From a virus: a stretch of DNA of 64,000 nucleotides. The translations under genes and the position numbers were made by a program. Below, piece by piece: positions 114 to 55,055 of this stretch; positions within the stretch are counted from its first letter, which is position 1; each line of letters starts with the position of its first letter. The notes under the pieces were generated by a model. The model had not been told where the DNA came from. It searched no databases and was given only the letters and a program-made list of their open reading frames with translations. The stretch covers positions 1 to 64,000 of IMG/VR virus record IMGVR_UViG_3300017917_002108, one strand, 5' to 3'.

Positions 114-142
114 TTGACAGACATAGTCGGAGAGTGTATAAT
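114..142 (+). promoter_or_regulatory. sigma70 promoter
   Basis: TTGACA (114-119)-17 bp-TATAAT (137-142), just upstream of tRNA-Tyr. Confidence 0.85.
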
Positions 143-236: not shown

Positions 237-401
237 TTAAGAAATAGCATTGACGGGTATCGTCTATGGACGCATAGACTTATGAAGGATAGGGCCATCT
301 TACCCTTCTGAGAAAACTGTGAACAATGGCTTATGAGGAGAATCGAACTCCACTCAGAAATACGTTTCATCCCATAGGGTGTAATGTTATTTTTTAATGG
401 T
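233..401 (+). ncRNA. ~170-nt multibranch structured RNA candidate
   Basis: 19-bp closing stem (233-251 with 383-401, 2 G-U); internal hairpins gtctatg/catagac, gaagg/ccttc, tctgag/ctcaga, ggag/ctcc. Confidence 0.5.
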
Positions 402-411
402 AAAAATTTAA

Positions 412-1294
412 GGGTAGTTTATTATCCTGTTGGCGGCTTGCCGTTGACGAAGAATAAGTTGAGTGATCAACCCAAAGGAGGTAAGCCTACGCAACTCCGC
501 CAGCAATGGTTCATGTAAACAAGCCTGCTCACTACCGTGAGGTAGCGTTCACTTATAAGACGGGTGGATGTAACAGCAAAGCTGATGTTAGGGAAAGAAT
601 GCGTATCGACTGGCCCGCAAGGGAACCAGGGTGCGTGAAAAGTAACAGGTGGTGCTGACTTCCTAACAAAACCAATCAGTCAGTTGGTATGAGAAAGGGT
701 AGTGTATTGGTTCGAAGGGTCGCACCTAAGAGCTCGTATGCAATGTAAATGGTTGGTGGGACACGTTGCGAAACGTTGTTACACTGGTCGTGAAACATCA
801 CTGAGTAGCTCGCGAGGCAAAAGGTATGTGGTGAGTTGTATCGTGTATTCCAAAAGAGTATGCGGCAACTGAGGCAGCTCATCGCGGTAGGTTGTTATAG
901 ATCAATGGTAGATCATTTCTCTGTTAAAGAAACTGCTGTAGGTTCAAATCCTACTAACAAATCAAAAATGCAAAGACTGCCTCGGTTATGTGTGAAAAGC
1001 ATCTAATGCTTGACACGCAAGTGAATCAAGTCTAATGAAGCTCGCAAGGTGACATTAGTTTATACTGGAAGTTTCGTAACGGTTTAGCGACTGTGAATGG
1101 CTCGCAAGGTCAACGGGATAGATGGTGTAGAATAGCACATAACGACAAGCCTACTGCCTGGCTTTAAAAACGGCGATGCTGATAGTGGACATAGATACAG
1201 TAATGGTCTATGTGGATGTCTAGAGAAGGTTTGCTCGCAAGGCGGACTATAATGCTAGAGGCACTATTGGCTAACGTGTAATCTCAGCGTTAGC
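412..1294 (+). ncRNA. GOLLD-like giant ornate RNA
   Basis: ~880 nt with no credible ORF, inside a tRNA cluster; many GNRA (GCAA/GAAA/GTGA) hairpins; 3' hairpin gctaacg-TGTAATCTCAG-cgttagc as I recall for GOLLD; embedded tRNA. 5' boundary approximate. Confidence 0.8.
891..962 (+). tRNA. tRNA-Asn(GTT)-like element embedded in the GOLLD-like RNA (no CCA)
   Basis: Acceptor ttgtta/taacaa; D arm gatc-aatggta-gatc; anticodon arm tttct-ctGTTaa-agaaa; T arm gtagg-ttcaaat-cctac. Confidence 0.8.
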
Positions 1295-1295
1295 A

Positions 1296-1361
1296 CTATT
1301 CTAAAACACATTCGCAACCAAATGGGAGTGAAATGTCCGCGGGGAGTGTGTTTCAGAATAG
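1296..1361 (+). ncRNA. Small hairpin RNA candidate (long closing stem family)
   Basis: ctattctaaaacacattc (1296-1313) pairs with gagtgtgtttcagaatag (1344-1361). Confidence 0.45.
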
Positions 1362-3759: not shown

Positions 3760-3835
3760 CGCAGAGTATGGAAGTGGTCATCCGTCCGGTCTCATAAGCC
3801 GGGAATCGCAGGTTCGAATCCTGCCTCTGCAACCA
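3760..3835 (+). tRNA. tRNA-Met(CAT), initiator-like
   Basis: ctCATaa loop; C1:A72 mismatch; CCA. Confidence 0.9.
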
Positions 3836-5113: not shown

Positions 5114-5787
5114 AACGAGTGATTGAAATCCGTGCCGCAGAGGGCGGTGAAGATTCAAAACTATTTGTCAGCGATCTCGCGACCGCTTACCAGAAATTGG
5201 GAATGAAACTAGGTTGAACTACCCGCCTGATAGATGTACGTCTTGGCGAGTGTAGTTTACTTGTTGAGGGCGCAGATCTATCCGGCTTAGACAATGAGCC
5301 CGGAGGTCATAGAATACAGCGTGTTCCTCCCACGGAACGCAAGGGCAGAGTTCATACCAGCACCGTTACCGTCGCGGTCATAGACAGCGAGGATGCCTGG
5401 ACAGCACCAACTATACATAAGTCCGATCTAAAGATTGAATGGTATAGTGGTACTGGGGCTGGTGGACAATATCGCAACAAACATCAAAACAGTTGTCGTA
5501 TCACACACATTCCTTCAGGAATCGTAGCCAAATCAGAATGCCGTAGTCGCCAAAATAGTTTGGATTCCGCTATGGCGGAAATACAACAGCGCATTGACAG
5601 CGAAGCCAAAAGATCGTATAATAATAACATAGCCTGCAATAGAAAGCAGCAAGTTGGGTCAGGCATGCGGGGAGACAAAATCCGCACCTACAGATTCCAG
5701 GACGATTCTGTTCAAGATCATCTGACAGGCTGTAGAGCAAAATGTTCCGCAGTTTTGAAAGGCAATATAGATTTACTTTGGAGATAA
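5110..5787 (+). CDS. RF1-type class I peptide chain release factor lacking domain 1, with in-frame UGA at codon 36 (5215-5217)
   Basis: Manual translation: MKRVIEIRAAEGGEDSKLF..KLG*TTR..EPGGHRIQRVPPTERKGRVHTSTVTVAV..GTGAGGQ..RITHIPSG..RSRQNS..GSGMRGDKIRTYRF; one frame, one stop. Confidence 0.9.
5594..5622 (+). promoter_or_regulatory. sigma70 promoter inside the release factor gene
   Basis: TTGACA (5594-5599)-17-TATAAT (5617-5622). Confidence 0.75.
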
Positions 5788-5789
5788 AC

Positions 5790-6287
5790 ATGGCACCATG
5801 GATTCAGAATGTATCGCTCAGCGATGTACGTAAAGGTCATCACATCGATGCGGGCATCAATTCCATGTTGATCCAGATCGTAGATCCAGCAATGGAGTTT
5901 CCTGCACCGTCTTATCAGTTTCGAGAAGTTCATCAATTCGAGTTCTTGGATCTTGAAAAGAGCGATAATTGTATTAACGACGATTGGAAGATACAAGATG
6001 CGCAGGCCGCAGAACTTGTAAGGCTTCTACAACATGCTTTAGAGCATAAGATGAATGTGGTTGTTCATTGTGTAGCGGGCGTCTGTCGTTCGGGTGCTGT
6101 CTGCGAGATTGGAGTTATGATGGGCTTCCGTGATACTGAAGTTTTTCGTTCACCTAATCTATTAGTCAAGCACAAGATGATGAAGTGCCTGGGTTGGACC
6201 TATGATGAAAAAGAAGCTCATACGATCAATGGTGTGATTTTAGATTCCGGCCTTATTGTGCCAAAAAATTATGAAGGGGGTATTTAA
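5790..6287 (+). CDS. Cys-dependent (PTP/dual-specificity-like) phosphatase
   Basis: VVHCVAGVCRS (HCxxGxxR); GGAG SD before ATG 5790. Confidence 0.8.
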   Translation: MAPWIQNVSLSDVRKGHHIDAGINSMLIQIVDPAMEFPAPSYQFREVHQFEFLDLEKSDNCINDDWKIQDAQAAELVRLLQHALEHKMNVVVHCVAGVCRSGAVCEIGVMMGFRDTEVFRSPNLLVKHKMMKCLGWTYDEKEAHTINGVILDSGLIVPKNYEGGI

Positions 6288-7025: not shown

Positions 7026-7628
7026 ATGCCTAGCGTGTTTTTAGTAAGTGATACGCACTTCGGCCATGCAGGCGTGTGTCGTTTCACTCGAGATGATGGT
7101 AGTAAGTTGAGACCGTGGGATTCGGCTGAAGAAATGGACGAAGCTATGGTCAAGGCTTGGAACGAGAGAGTTAAGCCTACTGACAAGGTGTATCACTTAG
7201 GTGATGTTGTTATTAATCGTAAGGCAATGAGCACATTAGCTCGTTTGAACGGAGACAAGGTTTTAATCCGTGGTAACCACGACATCTTTAGAGATGGCGA
7301 GTACAGACAGTACTTTAGAGAATTACGTGCATATCATGTTATGAACGGAATGATCTTAAGTCACATTCCTGTACACAGTGATAGTTTGGGTCGTTTTGGT
7401 GTTAACATTCACGGACACTTACACGCAAACCGTGTTAAGAAGGCTCGTGGAGTTGATGCTCGTACAGGAGAAATTTTGTACAGCGATGAGATCGATCCTC
7501 GTTACCATTGCGTCTGCGTAGAACAAACACCAAACTTTGCGCCTATCTTGTTTGAAGACGTTATCAAGCGTATTGAAGCAGAAGGCGGATCAGTAGGTTT
7601 TAGGAACGGTAACGGTCCTACAATGTGA
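7026..7628 (+). CDS. Calcineurin-like metallophosphoesterase
   Basis: DTHFGH, LGD, GNHD, HGHLH motifs; AGGAGG SD. Confidence 0.92.
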   Translation: MPSVFLVSDTHFGHAGVCRFTRDDGSKLRPWDSAEEMDEAMVKAWNERVKPTDKVYHLGDVVINRKAMSTLARLNGDKVLIRGNHDIFRDGEYRQYFRELRAYHVMNGMILSHIPVHSDSLGRFGVNIHGHLHANRVKKARGVDARTGEILYSDEIDPRYHCVCVEQTPNFAPILFEDVIKRIEAEGGSVGFRNGNGPTM

Positions 7629-7735: not shown

Positions 7736-9463
7736 ATGCCCTTACAAATTAAAAGAGGCCCAACAGCAGATAGAACTACCTATACGCCGGTACAAGGCGA
7801 ATTGGTGTTTGATACTGATGAAAACAAATTATATGTAGGAGACGGTACTACTGTAGGTGGTATAGCTTCTACATCGATCAGCATCGAAGATGCGCAAGAT
7901 GCGGCAGCATCTCTATTAACCAGCGGTATTCATACCGGAATTTCATTCACGTACAACGACACTGCGGCCAGAATAGACGCTGTTCTAGGCACAGATCTAG
8001 TGACTGATATCAAAGGATCTGTATTTGCAGACGACAGCACAATTTTAGTAGACAGTGTATCTGCTCAAATCAATCTAGACGGAACTGTAAAAGGCGATAT
8101 CGTACCTGATGTAGATTCTGCCTATGATCTCGGCAGTGCCTCTTTTAAATTTAGAGACCTTTATCTCAGTGGGACCAGTATATATCTGGGTTCTGCACTG
8201 ATTACAGCTTCTGGTTCAATAGTTAATTTACCTGCCGGATCAACTATCGGTGGACTGGACATAGGTTCTGGCAGCGGAGTTACACCCGGAAGTAATTACA
8301 ATATCAATATCGTAGGCGACGACAGCACAGTAATTCTAAATTCGTCAACTAAAACAATTACCGCAGCCGGTGGTTTTGTGGGCAATATAACTGGTAATCT
8401 TATCGGTAACACCACAGGCTATCACACAGGCGATGTCAAAGGATCTATATTTGCAGATGATTCGACTATTCTTGTGGATGCGGTAGGCGCGGTTATTAGA
8501 GCCGATATCGCTACCGATGAAATTAAATTAGGAACTCCTAGTTCTTATGATCTAAGAATTTACAAAACTGTTCCAGGAGAAGTCACCTTTGATGTTAGCG
8601 GTCTTTTAGATTTTAGATTAAATGCAACAAACCTAAATCTAGGATCAAATACATATTCATCTAGACTCAACATATTCAGAAGCGGTTCAGTCGGTACTAT
8701 AGCTAATTTTTATACAGCAGTCACAGGTGGCGGCACTTCAGGAAACAATTTTAGTTTTTATAGAGCTAACGGCACACTAGGCAGTCCAACTGCTATGGCC
8801 GACGGTGAAAGAATTATAGATATTGACTTTCACGGCCATACAGGATCCGGTTATTTTTCCGCAGCCAATATTCGTGCATATGTAGATGGCACGCCTTCAG
8901 CTGGTGTTGTTCCAGGTGGACTTGTATTAATGACTAGATCTGCTGGAGGATCTATGCAGAACTCGGTCACCATAGATTCTACCAATGCAACTACTCTTAG
9001 AGGAAATCTTAATGTAGATTCTGGTAACGTAAACGTTACAGTTTATGGCAATAACCAAAGCGTAAAATCTGTAAACTTTTATAGAGCAAGAGGAAACATT
9101 TCAACGCCCACAACAGCATTGGCCAACGATCACTTGTATTCGTTAAAATTCAATGCCTATGACGGTTCGGCCTATCAGCAGAGCAGTCTGATCAGAGCTG
9201 AAATTGATGGCTCATTATTAGGTGGAGGAATAGTTCCAGGCAAGTTGGTTTTAATGACAGTTGGCACAGCAGGAACTATGACCACTGCCATGCAGATTAA
9301 TAAGGATCAAGTAGTTTCTGTTAACAAAGCTCTACAACTACCGGTGTATGCAGATTCGACTGCAAGATCAGCGGGTATACCAACACCAGCTACAGGCATG
9401 GTATGTATTACTGCTTCTAGTTTTACCTGGTATGACGGTACTGTTTGGCAGACTCTAACCTAA
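7736..9463 (+). CDS. Tail fibre / receptor-binding protein
   Basis: N-terminal LQIKRG..GELVFDTDENKLYVGDG module (Mtd-N/hyaluronidase-like); YDLGSASFKFRDLYLSG; duplicated C-terminal beta module. Confidence 0.85.
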   Translation: MPLQIKRGPTADRTTYTPVQGELVFDTDENKLYVGDGTTVGGIASTSISIEDAQDAAASLLTSGIHTGISFTYNDTAARIDAVLGTDLVTDIKGSVFADDSTILVDSVSAQINLDGTVKGDIVPDVDSAYDLGSASFKFRDLYLSGTSIYLGSALITASGSIVNLPAGSTIGGLDIGSGSGVTPGSNYNINIVGDDSTVILNSSTKTITAAGGFVGNITGNLIGNTTGYHTGDVKGSIFADDSTILVDAVGAVIRADIATDEIKLGTPSSYDLRIYKTVPGEVTFDVSGLLDFRLNATNLNLGSNTYSSRLNIFRSGSVGTIANFYTAVTGGGTSGNNFSFYRANGTLGSPTAMADGERIIDIDFHGHTGSGYFSAANIRAYVDGTPSAGVVPGGLVLMTRSAGGSMQNSVTIDSTNATTLRGNLNVDSGNVNVTVYGNNQSVKSVNFYRARGNISTPTTALANDHLYSLKFNAYDGSAYQQSSLIRAEIDGSLLGGGIVPGKLVLMTVGTAGTMTTAMQINKDQVVSVNKALQLPVYADSTARSAGIPTPATGMVCITASSFTWYDGTVWQTLT

Positions 9464-29403: not shown

Positions 29404-29952
29404 ATGGCGAAATTTTACTCAACAAAAACTTATGGCAATGACAGAGGACTGTCATGTTGCTTTAGACAATGGCGTGCCACACACAGTCATTGCTCAACAC
29501 TTCACGGTTATTCAATTGGCATTAAACTCGTATTTGAATGCGATACACTAGATGATAAAAACTGGTGCATGGACTTCGGTGGGCTCAAAGAATTTAAAGC
29601 GTGGGCCGATCACATGTTTGATCACACTTTGGTAATCGCTGAAGATGATCCGATGCTAGATCGATTCAAAGCAATGAGTGGCTGGAGTTCAAATCCAGAA
29701 CATGACGGTAATCCAGAACGTGTTCAAGTTGAACCATACCGTCGTCAAGGCATCTGCGATCTACGTATCGTTCCAGGCGTAGGCTGTGAAATGTTTGCTA
29801 AGATGTGCTACGACAAGATGGCCGAACTTCTAGCATCTGGCAATATGCGCTACCCAATCAATCCCACAGTGCGTGTCAAATCTGTAGAAGTATTTGAACA
29901 TGGTGCTAACTCAGCGACCTACGAGGGAGACTATCCAGTAATTCGAGGATGA
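29404..29952 (+). CDS. queD: 6-carboxytetrahydropterin synthase / PTPS family
   Basis: HCSTLHGY..MDFGGLK..FDH..CEMFA..VEVFE. Confidence 0.88.
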   Translation: MAKFYSTKTYGNDRGLSCCFRQWRATHSHCSTLHGYSIGIKLVFECDTLDDKNWCMDFGGLKEFKAWADHMFDHTLVIAEDDPMLDRFKAMSGWSSNPEHDGNPERVQVEPYRRQGICDLRIVPGVGCEMFAKMCYDKMAELLASGNMRYPINPTVRVKSVEVFEHGANSATYEGDYPVIRG

Positions 29953-54461: not shown

Positions 54462-55055
54462 TTATCTAATACCCTGCTTGCGTAGTTCTAGACAACTATG
54501 ACACTTGCCGCAGGGCAGTATCTGTGTTTCCTTGTACTGCGGTGTGCGGCAACTCCAAAACAGATCACGTAGTGTTTCTGGCAACATCAGATGTATTTGT
54601 TGTTTGGTCATAGTCAACACAGGAAATATCTTTTCCGCTCCCGTGAATGCTGAAAATATGATGTTGGCTCTACGACGTCGATCTTCTAGACGCTGATTGG
54701 CATCGTTGGCTGTCATTCCCATTGCCACTTTCTTTATGCGACTATCGTTAGAGCAGATAAATCCCGCAAAGAAATTCATAGTGTCTGTGTCGTAGAGAAA
54801 CCCTGGGCCTATGTGCGGACTGCGTATTTCGCTTTCTGTGTACTCAAAATCATAGCCCAATCTCCGTATTTCTTTAAGTGCTAGATCCACAGTGATGGCT
54901 TCGGCCTTGGCTCTATTTTCCACGTTGTTGTTATGTACGTGATGTACGTGTAGGTCATAGTGCTTGTACAGGGGATTGGTCAAGATAGTCCACACAGTAC
55001 CAAGACTGTCTAGGCCTCCTGAATACATCACTAGGATTTTGTCTTTTGATTCCAT
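54462..55055 (-). CDS. QueC-like PP-loop ATPase
   Basis: MYSGGLDS; WSCRTP..PCGKCHSC zinc site. Confidence 0.8.
   Translation of the reverse strand: MESKDKILVMYSGGLDSLGTVWTILTNPLYKHYDLHVHHVHNNNVENRAKAEAITVDLALKEIRRLGYDFEYTESEIRSPHIGPGFLYDTDTMNFFAGFICSNDSRIKKVAMGMTANDANQRLEDRRRRANIIFSAFTGAEKIFPVLTMTKQQIHLMLPETLRDLFWSCRTPQYKETQILPCGKCHSCLELRKQGIR

What the first reader, a model, noticed from the sequence alone, without database searches (positions are those of the whole stretch)
412..1294. GOLLD-like giant RNA carrying a tRNA-Asn-like passenger inside a closed helix
Seen: ~880 nt of GNRA-capped hairpins. Helix aactgaggcag (867-877)/ctgcctcggtt (977-987) encloses a full cloverleaf (891-962, GTT anticodon). 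It has a mismatched first acceptor pair and no CCA, unlike every free tRNA here. Established: GOLLD RNAs occur in phage tRNA clusters, sometimes contain tRNAs in a variable region, and have been shown by cryo-EM to assemble into RNA-only cages; their function is unknown. Inference: the element may be a displayed or protected cargo, a decoy for anticodon nucleases or modification enzymes, or a processing signal. GUN anticodons are queuosine substrates, and this phage has queD and queC-like genes.
Basis: partly seen in the sequence, partly recalled or inferred. Interest (0 to 1): 0.75.

Follow-up and report, generated by a model that had tools for sequence, protein, structure and literature searches.

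The report
GOLLD phage RNA with tethered tRNA mimic
This gene-free 0.9-kb stretch in a large phage's tRNA island is a full-length member of GOLLD, a known family of giant cage-forming RNAs, and carries in its central linker a tRNA-Asn look-alike clamped at both ends; this is a known feature of the family, so it is a good example and not a new kind of element.

Summary
Window 828-1290 matches Rfam GOLLD (215.6 bits, cut-off 150). Positions about 409-827 form a covariation-supported 5' domain. Positions 891-962 form a high-scoring tRNA-Asn(GUU) cloverleaf in the linker.

The enclosing helix is real, but its conserved core is 8 bp (870-877/977-984).

Comparison with 28 related tRNA-bearing GOLLDs shows:
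- The D, anticodon and T stems are kept by compensatory changes.
- The acceptor end is degenerate.
- CCA is encoded in 1 of 25 embedded modules against 249 of 255 free tRNAs in the same loci.
- Asn identity base G73 is absent.
- Seven loci also carry a normal free tRNA with the same anticodon.

The "mismatched" G891 is the last base of a second clamp: GUAGG 887-891 pairs with CCUAC 486-490 in a 5'-domain loop (135/135 cells paired, three pairs with compensatory changes).

The most likely reading is a non-chargeable tRNA mimic that stays tethered, probably facing the cage interior. Its function is unknown.

GOLLD RNAs with linker tRNAs are already published (Kretsch 2025 and others). This scan has reported the same thing at least 28 times on other DNA. 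Interest is modest.

The parts
114..142 (+). Perfect sigma-70-type promoter (TTGACA-17-TATAAT) upstream of tRNA-Tyr (152-236). It is a possible read-through source of the GOLLD transcript.
   Evidence: 12 of 12 consensus matches. Its link to GOLLD is inferred only.
368..397 (+). Terminator-like hairpin plus T-run just upstream of the GOLLD 5' end. A weak extended -10-like TGgTAAAAA follows at 398-406.
   Evidence: for the hairpin; sequence read. Relatives L169, L183 and L131 have TTGACA-17-TATAAT-type boxes at the equivalent place. The window's own promoter is weak and uncertain.
409..827 (+). GOLLD 5' domain. It is variable across the family and conserved within this clade.
   Evidence: Alignment A3. 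RNAalifold predicts 122 pairs, 75 of them with compensatory changes. nhmmer finds full-length matches to L005 and L032.
477..498 (+). 5'-domain hairpin (stem 477-480/495-498). Its apical-loop bases CCUAC 486-490 pair with GUAGG 887-891.
   Evidence: The stem is 97% paired with 3 of 4 pairs covarying. The loop-junction helix is paired in 135 of 135 cells, with 3 of 5 pairs changed on both sides.
828..885 (+). First hairpin of the conserved 3' region (start of the Rfam model; P13/P14 in the published numbering). It has the A-rich loop CAAAA at 851-855 and a 9-nt internal loop at 870-878.
   Evidence: Rfam alignment. Pair counts: 98% and 93% of cells paired, 14 of 21 pairs covarying.
870..877 (+). 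5' strand of the pseudoknot helix that closes the linker. It pairs with 977-984.
   Evidence: helix 3: 96.1% paired, with pair types such as AU 17, GC 9, UA 2, CG 1.
887..891 (+). GUAGG, the 3' strand of the long-range helix to 486-490. G891 is also 'position 1' of the cloverleaf.
   Evidence: Compensatory variants are GUGGC with GCCAC (L179), GUAGA with UCUAC (L122) and AUAGG with CCUAU (L192).
891..962 (+). tRNA-Asn-like cloverleaf with anticodon GUU at 923-925. It has canonical U8, G18G19, U33, A37 and a TTCAAAT T-loop. It also has a G1.A72 mismatch, U73, no CCA, and an acceptor stem of 21% G+C.
   Evidence: Stem covariation (D 94.8%, anticodon 94.5%, T 96.5% paired).
963..976 (+). A-rich single-stranded tail of the linker (CAAAAAUGCAAAGA). 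The GCAAAG part is nearly invariant in the clade.
   Evidence: Alignment A2.
977..984 (+). 3' strand of the pseudoknot helix that closes the linker.
985..1294 (+). Remainder of the conserved GOLLD 3' domain. It includes helix 985-993/1135-1143, three GCUCGCAAGG GNRA hairpins and the terminal hairpin 1267-1294, whose loop holds the invariant GUAAUCUCAG.
   Evidence: Rfam alignment, alignment A2 and (helix 9: 98.9% paired, 8 of 9 pairs covary).

Best explanation
Identity. Window 409-1294 (+) encodes one full-length GOLLD RNA of about 885 nt, transcribed within the phage's tRNA island.

Expected assembly. By homology with the solved env-38 and Streptococcus agalactiae GOLLDs, it should fold into separate 5' and 3' domains and self-assemble into a closed 12- to 14-chain RNA cage, with the central linker pointing into the lumen.

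The linker. In this clade the linker is not disordered filler. It is a tRNA-shaped module clamped at both ends. Its 5' end runs straight out of a 5-bp helix formed with a 5'-domain hairpin loop (887-891 with 486-490). Its 3' tail leads into an 8-bp pseudoknot helix (977-984 with 870-877) that stacks between the first 3'-domain hairpin and the next helix.

What the module is. It keeps a tRNA body and a canonical anticodon loop but has lost what a working tRNA needs at the acceptor end. I therefore think it is not released or charged. It most likely stays covalently tethered, one copy per chain, as a tRNA mimic that presents an Asn-type anticodon stem-loop to some tRNA-reading partner. Candidates are an anticodon nuclease, a modification enzyme or the ribosome.

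Shown here: family membership, both clamps, the conserved cloverleaf and the acceptor-end defects. Inferred: cage formation, interior location, absence of excision, and the bait role.
For: Membership.
- Rfam GOLLD scores 215.6 bits in the window.
- 12 of 12 tested relatives also pass the gathering score.

Structure.
- The named structure is 93.2% paired against 73.8% in shuffles, with 0 of 500 shuffles reaching the observed value.
- The pseudoknot clamp is 96% paired with 4 covarying pairs.
- The long-range clamp is paired in 135 of 135 cells with 3 covarying pairs; 0 of 500 shuffles reach its cell counts and 2 of 500 its number of covarying pairs.

tRNA body under selection.
- The D, anticodon and T stems are 94-96% paired, and 12 of their 14 pairs change on both sides.
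- 21 of 29 aligned anticodon loops are 7 nt with U33 and a purine at 37.

Acceptor end not under tRNA-type selection.
- The five distal acceptor pairs are only 64% paired.
- CCA is encoded in 1 of 25 embedded modules against 249 of 255 free tRNAs in the same loci. Free acceptors are 68% G+C, and 224 of the 249 that end in CCA are fully paired.
- The window module has U73. Free tRNA-Asn genes in L131, L193 and L204 have G73, which is an AsnRS identity element by established knowledge.

Redundancy. A normal CCA-bearing tRNA with the same anticodon is present in L131, L193, L204, L130, L032, L160 and L168.

Anticodon bias. GUU, UUU and UCU make up 17 of 25 embedded modules against 18 of 255 free tRNAs (not corrected for phylogeny).

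Persistence. tRNA-bearing GOLLDs cluster on the 3'-domain tree: 7 changes of state against a shuffled mean of 24.

Literature.
- The linker flanks point to the cage interior, and tRNAs sometimes lie in the linker (PMC12286853).
- A northern blot did not detect the pseudo-tRNA embedded in a mycobacterial GOLLD (PMC6582537).
Against: - Excision is therefore not excluded.
- The window's module is one of the better tRNAs of the clade: 62.5 bits, 6 of 7 acceptor pairs, and every core tertiary base present.
- Hosts have CCA-adding enzymes, and phage T4 is known to encode some tRNAs without CCA.
- No other tRNA-Asn is seen in this record, but the contig begins at the tRNA cluster and the record is only 41% complete.
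- Covariation for the long-range clamp comes from only three lineages.
- Cage assembly and interior placement are extrapolated from two solved homologues whose linkers lack a tRNA.
- The anticodon bias could simply reflect descent with one-step mutations (GUU, UUU and UCU are neighbours) and not selection for particular targets.
Confidence: 0.55

Rival explanations
1. The module is a genuine tRNA-Asn gene nested in GOLLD. RNase P and 3' trimming release it, the host CCA-adding enzyme completes it, and it serves translation of the phage's AAY codons. The two GOLLD halves stay together through the pseudoknot and tertiary contacts.
For: - The module scores 62.5 bits with Rfam tRNA, as high as the free tRNAs.
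- It has a canonical cloverleaf and anticodon loop.
- No second tRNA-Asn is found in the held record.
- L169 (19 tRNAs) and L194 (24 tRNAs) likewise show no other Asn tRNA.
- The two clamps could hold a nicked RNA together.
Against: - The module has U73 in place of G73, a G1.A72 mismatch and no CCA, while 98% of free tRNAs encode CCA.
- Acceptor ends are degenerate across the clade.
- Seven loci already carry a normal tRNA with the same anticodon.
- An embedded 'Ser GCU' module lacks the long variable arm.
- The 5' leader is locked in a helix.
- A mycobacterial GOLLD pseudo-tRNA was not detected by northern blot.
Confidence: 0.2
2. The cloverleaf is a processing signal, like the tRNA-like element of MALAT1/mascRNA. 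Host RNase P or RNase Z nicks GOLLD there to separate or mature the 5' and 3' domains, and the anticodon has no role.
For: - The module sits exactly at the boundary between the domains.
- The T arm is the best-conserved part of the module (66-76% identity).
- The 3' domain alone can oligomerise in a solved homologue (PMC12990946).
Against: - RNase P needs mainly the acceptor and T arms, yet the acceptor end is the least conserved part.
- The D and anticodon stems, and the canonical U33/R37 loop, are maintained.
- Most GOLLDs manage without any tRNA: 76 of 88 distinct ones in my sample.
Confidence: 0.1
3. The module is a neutral passenger: a decaying tRNA gene that landed in a linker able to tolerate insertions, with no role of its own.
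For: - The linker is variable and disordered in the solved env-38 structure.
- Some clade members have degenerate or truncated modules (L005, L205, L199, L125).
Against: - Compensatory changes keep three stems at 94-96% pairing, although the module diverges faster than the scaffold: 65% identity against 83%.
- The module is retained throughout a deep clade.
- Its anticodon set is strongly non-random.
Confidence: 0.05

Closest known systems
GOLLD RNA (Rfam RF02032). Solved examples are env-38 (14-chain cage, PDB 9MEE) and Streptococcus agalactiae (12-chain, PDB 9L0R).
   Same: - The conserved 3' domain, including the invariant terminal loop GUAAUCUCAG.
- A-rich L14-type loop.
- GNRA-capped hairpins.
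- A separate and more variable 5' domain.
- A location in a phage tRNA island.
- A central linker between the domains.
   Different: The env-38 linker is a 42-nt disordered stretch. Here the linker is 91 nt and folds as a tRNA-like module clamped on both sides. The 5' domain is specific to this freshwater-phage clade. Oligomeric state is not known for this member.
GOLLD RNAs with a tRNA or pseudo-tRNA in the J13/15 linker. Examples are the mycobacterial tRNA-array GOLLDs; see also the 'covalently linked tRNAs' figure in Kretsch 2025 and the 'inhibited storage' idea in PMC12990946.
   Same: A tRNA-shaped insert at the same position, proposed to point inward. In one case it is reported as a non-expressed pseudo-tRNA.
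   Different: - The anticodon differs: Asn GUU here, Phe reported there.
- This analysis adds clade-wide evidence: loss of CCA and identity elements, redundancy with free tRNAs, a bias towards GUU/UUU/UCU, and a second clamp that uses the first 'tRNA' base.
ROOL RNA (phage and prophage cage-forming RNA).
   Same: A large ornate RNA-only cage, found in tRNA-island neighbourhoods, with an interior disordered linker.
   Different: Sequence and fold are unrelated. No ROOL model hit was found in the window.
tRNA-like structures that are not translation tRNAs (plant-virus 3' TLS, MALAT1 mascRNA, tmRNA).
   Same: A tRNA fold reused inside a larger RNA to engage tRNA-recognising machinery.
   Different: Those elements keep a functional acceptor/CCA end, or are excised by RNase P. 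This module has both ends buried in helices and keeps the anticodon loop. The comparison rests on general knowledge and was not tested here.

Membership tests
GOLLD RNA (RF02032) | Covariance-model score above the curated gathering threshold, over the full model. | tested here: met
   215.6 bits against a threshold of 150, model positions 1-416, E 1e-59. Relatives score 159-323 bits.
GOLLD RNA (RF02032) | Conserved 3'-domain helices supported by covariation, and the invariant terminal loop GUAAUCUCAG. | tested here: met
   Helix 985-993/1135-1143 is 98.9% paired with 8 of 9 pairs covarying. The first hairpin is 93-98% paired. The loop motif at 1276-1288 is invariant in 29 of 29 sequences. This invariance carries no weight, because every homologue was collected with a search pattern that contains this motif.
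GOLLD RNA (RF02032) | A structured but less conserved 5' domain, giving a total length of about 800 nt or more. | tested here: met
   Positions 409-827 are aligned with 9 relatives. 75 of 122 predicted pairs show compensatory change. Total length is about 885 nt.
GOLLD RNA (RF02032) | Phage or prophage origin, close to tRNA genes. | tested here: met
   The source is an IMG/VR virus record of 146.6 kb. Ten free tRNAs lie within 4 kb.
GOLLD RNA (RF02032) | Self-assembly into a closed homo-oligomeric RNA cage. | not testable with these tools
   Known only from cryo-EM of env-38 and S. agalactiae GOLLD.
Functional elongator tRNA-Asn | Cloverleaf with canonical core bases and a GUU anticodon in a 7-nt loop. 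| tested here: met
   Rfam tRNA 62.5 bits and an ARAGORN call. U8, G18G19, U33, A37 and the T-loop were read.
Functional elongator tRNA-Asn | Fully paired acceptor stem, discriminator G73 (an AsnRS identity element, by established knowledge), and a 3' CCA encoded as in the phage's other tRNAs. | tested here: not met
   G891.A961 mismatch, U962 at position 73, no CCA. Free Asn tRNAs of relatives have G73 and CCA. CCA is encoded in 1 of 25 embedded modules against 249 of 255 free tRNAs.
Functional elongator tRNA-Asn | Release from the precursor and aminoacylation. | not testable with these tools

The most novel reading that the evidence does not exclude
The linker modules of this GOLLD clade are multivalent anticodon-loop baits. 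Each cage would carry 12-14 tethered, non-chargeable mimics of the tRNAs most often attacked by host anticodon nucleases (Asn-GUU, Lys-UUU, Arg-UCU). The cage would then act as a phage counter-defence sponge, or as a sequestering device for a tRNA-modifying enzyme. Rapid swapping of the anticodon arm between related phages would be the trace of an arms race. One relative (L140) has a linker reduced to a bare CUUUUAA anticodon-arm hairpin, which fits the idea that the anticodon arm is the active part.
Probability: 0.15. Interest if true: 0.8.

Novelty: new member of a known kind. Interest (0 to 1): 0.3.

Why it matters
GOLLD is one of the few natural RNAs known to build protein-free cages, and its function has been open since 2009. 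The linker tRNA is the only part of the RNA that hints at a partner.

This window gives a clean full-length example from a large freshwater-type phage. Together with its relatives, it narrows the question in three ways:
- The tRNA-shaped module behaves as a tethered mimic and not as a spare tRNA gene.
- Both of its ends are built into the GOLLD fold.
- Selection appears to act on the body and the anticodon loop, not on the acceptor end.

This points experiments towards factors that read anticodon loops.

None of it changes the classification. The element is a known RNA family with a known, published feature, and earlier reports of this scan reached very similar conclusions on other genomes.

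Tried and rejected
- GenBank phage search with the whole element: one weak 153-nt match only, to Xanthomonas phage X1. Homologues had to be collected by motif scans instead.
- Queuosine/Tgt-substrate idea: rejected as a general explanation.
- Alternative partner for GUAGG 887-891 in the 3' domain (CCUAC 1151-1155): rejected. That site varies without compensation, and a scan for covarying partners of the linker flanks returned only the known helices.
- Embedded module as a recent copy of the phage's own free tRNA with the same anticodon: rejected, because the sequences are unrelated outside the loop.
- RNA-repair genes near the element that might support an anticodon-nuclease context: only a DSP-type phosphatase-like ORF and a metallophosphoesterase were found, with no ligase or kinase. 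This is not informative.
- Protein-coding reading of 412-1294: only chance ORFs of 50-68 aa are present, and the substitution pattern is compensatory base-pairing.
- Weinberg 2009 and Morgado 2020 are not held in the library. I could not check whether the two clamps are already drawn in the published consensus.

Full report
**1. What is there**

Rfam cmscan of the whole window finds one GOLLD match (RF02032) at 828-1290 on the + strand. It scores 215.6 bits against a gathering score of 150 (E 1e-59) and spans the full 416-position model. It is the only copy in the 146.6-kb IMG/VR virus record that holds the window (CheckV completeness 41%).

The Rfam model covers only the conserved 3' region of GOLLD. 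The sequence upstream, from about 409, aligns over its whole length with relatives found in IMG/VR and JGI metagenomes. On 10 sequences, RNAalifold predicts 122 pairs, 75 of which keep pairing through changes on both sides. The MFE z-score for 400-1300 is -4.5.

Rfam tRNA (62.5 bits) and ARAGORN both call a tRNA-Asn (GUU) at 891-962.

**2. Surroundings**

The element lies in a tRNA island: Tyr, then GOLLD, then Pro, Val, Ser, two small ORFs, Ala, Thr, and further on Cys, Met, Arg, Gly.
- A perfect TTGACA-17-TATAAT promoter precedes tRNA-Tyr (114-142).
- A terminator-like hairpin with a T-run (368-397) and a weak -10-like box lie just before the GOLLD 5' end.
- Several relatives have consensus promoters at that spot.

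The rest of the window encodes phage proteins. These include a tail-fibre-like protein with an Mtd_N domain, UvdE, very large structural proteins, and a protein with its best matches in jumbo Pseudomonas phages.

**3. The enclosing helix**

The quoted strands are at the stated coordinates. I aligned 29 tRNA-bearing GOLLDs from the first 3'-domain hairpin to the 3' end (A2) and counted pairs for a structure I named.
- The structure as a whole is 93.2% paired against 73.8% in shuffles (0 of 500 shuffles reach it). Sliding the 3' partners drops pairing to 35-51%.
- The helix 870-877/977-984 is 96.1% paired, and four of its eight pairs change on both sides (for example AU 17, GC 9, UA 2, CG 1).
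- Those bases belong to the middle stem of the first hairpin and to helix 985-993/1135-1143, which is 98.9% paired with 8 of 9 pairs covarying.

The 5' strand of the conserved helix lies in the internal loop of the first hairpin, so this is a pseudoknot that closes the linker. The corresponding consensus positions of the Rfam model (ggcGgAG and CUucguc) are also complementary. This suggests a family-wide element. I could not check the published drawing.

**4. A second clamp explains the 'mismatched first pair'**

The bases GUAGG (887-891) are almost invariant in the clade, whatever the 3' strand of the acceptor stem looks like. They are complementary to CCUAC (486-490), which sits in the apical loop of a covariation-supported 5'-domain hairpin (477-480/495-498).

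On a 28-sequence alignment that spans both sites (A4), all 135 cells of this 5-bp helix are paired. Three pairs show changes on both sides, in three lineages:
- GUGGC with GCCAC or GUCAC (L179, L180)
- GUAGA with UCUAC (L122)
- AUAGG with CCUAU (L192)

In the shuffle control, 0 of 500 shuffles reach the observed number of compensated cells and 2 of 500 the number of compensated pairs. Slid controls give 25-51% pairing.

G891, which tRNA finders count as position 1 and which faces A961, is the last base of this helix. The acceptor stem proper starts directly after it. A scan for any other covarying partner of the linker flanks found only the helices already named.

Whether this pairing is within one chain or between chains cannot be told from sequence. 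In env-38 a pairing of the linker region with loop L20 turned out to be intermolecular.

**5. Is the module a tRNA gene or a mimic?**

In an unbiased sample of 88 distinct IMG/VR GOLLDs that share the two 3' motifs, 12 have an ARAGORN-callable tRNA at the linker position and one has a degenerate module.

On a tree of the post-linker 3' domain, the tRNA-bearing RNAs cluster strongly: 7 changes against a shuffled mean of 24. The three apparent exceptions inside the clade are two degenerate modules (L205, L199) and one truncated linker (L125).

Across 25 distinct embedded modules:
- The D, anticodon and T stems are 94-96% paired, with 12 of their 14 pairs changed on both sides.
- 21 of 29 aligned loops are 7 nt with U33 and a purine at 37.
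- The five distal acceptor pairs are only 64% paired, and many modules have 4-5 bp acceptors.
- Only 1 of 25 encodes CCA, against 249 of 255 distinct free tRNAs in the same loci. Of the 249 free tRNAs that end in CCA, 224 have fully paired acceptor stems; mean acceptor G+C is 68%. The window's module has 21% G+C in its acceptor.
- The window's module has U73. Free tRNA-Asn genes in three relatives have U1-A72 and G73. G73 is an AsnRS identity element by established knowledge.
- An embedded 'Ser GCU' module lacks the long variable arm that its free counterpart has.
- Seven loci carry both the embedded module and an unrelated, normal, CCA-bearing tRNA with the same anticodon, including a free amber-suppressor tRNA in L032.

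In the window's own record no second tRNA-Asn is seen. However, the contig begins at the cluster and the record is less than half complete.

**6. How the module evolves**

The module evolves faster than its scaffold. For pairs whose 3' domains are 80-90% identical, the modules are 65% identical, the anticodon arm 60% and the acceptor 52%.

The pattern is mosaic:
- The window shares a 100% identical anticodon arm with L184, but only 79% of the 3' domain.
- It shares 89% of the 3' domain with L186, but only 47% of the anticodon arm.

Anticodons in the clade are GUU (7), UCU (5), UUU (5) and single cases of CUA, UUA, UGG, GCU, UAU, a degenerate CCA and two 8-nt loops. The three commonest make up 17 of 25 embedded modules against 18 of 255 free tRNAs (Fisher p 4e-12). 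That test ignores phylogeny, and the three anticodons are one-step neighbours.

**7. Reading**

The identity is secure: a full-length GOLLD RNA with a tRNA-like module in its J13/15 linker.

For mechanism I favour a tethered, non-chargeable mimic (about 0.55). A released genuine tRNA (0.2), a processing signal (0.1) and a neutral passenger (0.05) are the rivals.

Interior placement and cage assembly are extrapolated from the env-38 and S. agalactiae structures. The literature already proposes cargo or 'inhibited storage' roles for linker tRNAs and reports one non-expressed pseudo-tRNA in a mycobacterial GOLLD.

The queuosine idea is not supported. GUN anticodons are a minority. QueD is present, but QueC is only a sub-threshold fragment and no TGT-family match exists in the record.

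**8. Novelty**

This is a new member of a known family, showing a known feature. The scan's own index lists at least 28 earlier findings of GOLLD with a linker tRNA in at least 25 genomes. Follow-up reports there reached the same 'mimic, swapped like a cassette' reading.

I could not compare that clamp with the published consensus drawing.

Noticed in passing
window 1296-1361: A long hairpin closed by a 17-18-bp AT-rich stem follows the GOLLD 3' end directly (MFE -23.7 kcal/mol, z -3.7). Its start is shared with close relatives (L108, L184). Another first-stage note describes a family of such cassettes between the tRNAs.
   Followed up: partly
window 3760-3835: The free tRNA-Met is initiator-type. 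It has a C1.A72 mismatch and G29-C41 and G30-C40 in the anticodon stem. The phage therefore seems to carry its own initiator tRNA.
   Followed up: partly
L032:2835-2913 and L032:6491-6565; L147 and L149 linkers: One relative carries both a free, CCA-bearing amber-suppressor tRNA (CUA) and an embedded CUA module in its GOLLD. Two other relatives embed a UUA (ochre) module. These phages may reassign stop codons.
   Followed up: no
L108 (contig end), L204 (contig end), L200 (contig start): Three independently assembled contigs break 3-7 nt before the embedded tRNA-like module, at the conserved GUAGG junction. This would fit strain-level mosaicism (different 5' halves joined to the same 3' half) confusing the assemblers.
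   Followed up: partly
L140:322-754 (linker): This GOLLD's linker holds no cloverleaf. It has only a hairpin, UUUGC-CUUUUAA-GCAAA, that looks like a bare tRNA-Lys anticodon arm.
   Followed up: no
L002:5276-5693 (- strand): A tmRNA gene (Rfam 73.6 bits) lies about 110 nt downstream of a GOLLD without a linker tRNA, on the opposite strand, in a 100-kb viral contig.
   Followed up: no
window 29452-29928 and 54465-54626: A QueD/PTPS-family ORF is present (59.7 bits). A 16.7-bit sub-threshold QueC-like fragment also occurs. No Pfam TGT match exists anywhere in the 146.6-kb record.
   Followed up: partly
window 7736-9463: A 575-aa ORF begins with a Major tropism determinant N-terminal domain (Mtd_N, E 5e-12). 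This domain is typical of receptor-binding proteins diversified by retroelements. No retroelement was looked for.
   Followed up: no
window 5742-6287 and 7026-7628: A dual-specificity-phosphatase-like ORF (below the Pfam cut-off) and a calcineurin-like metallophosphoesterase (PHROG 547, E 3e-49) lie just downstream of the tRNA island. A role in RNA-end healing is conceivable but untested.
   Followed up: no
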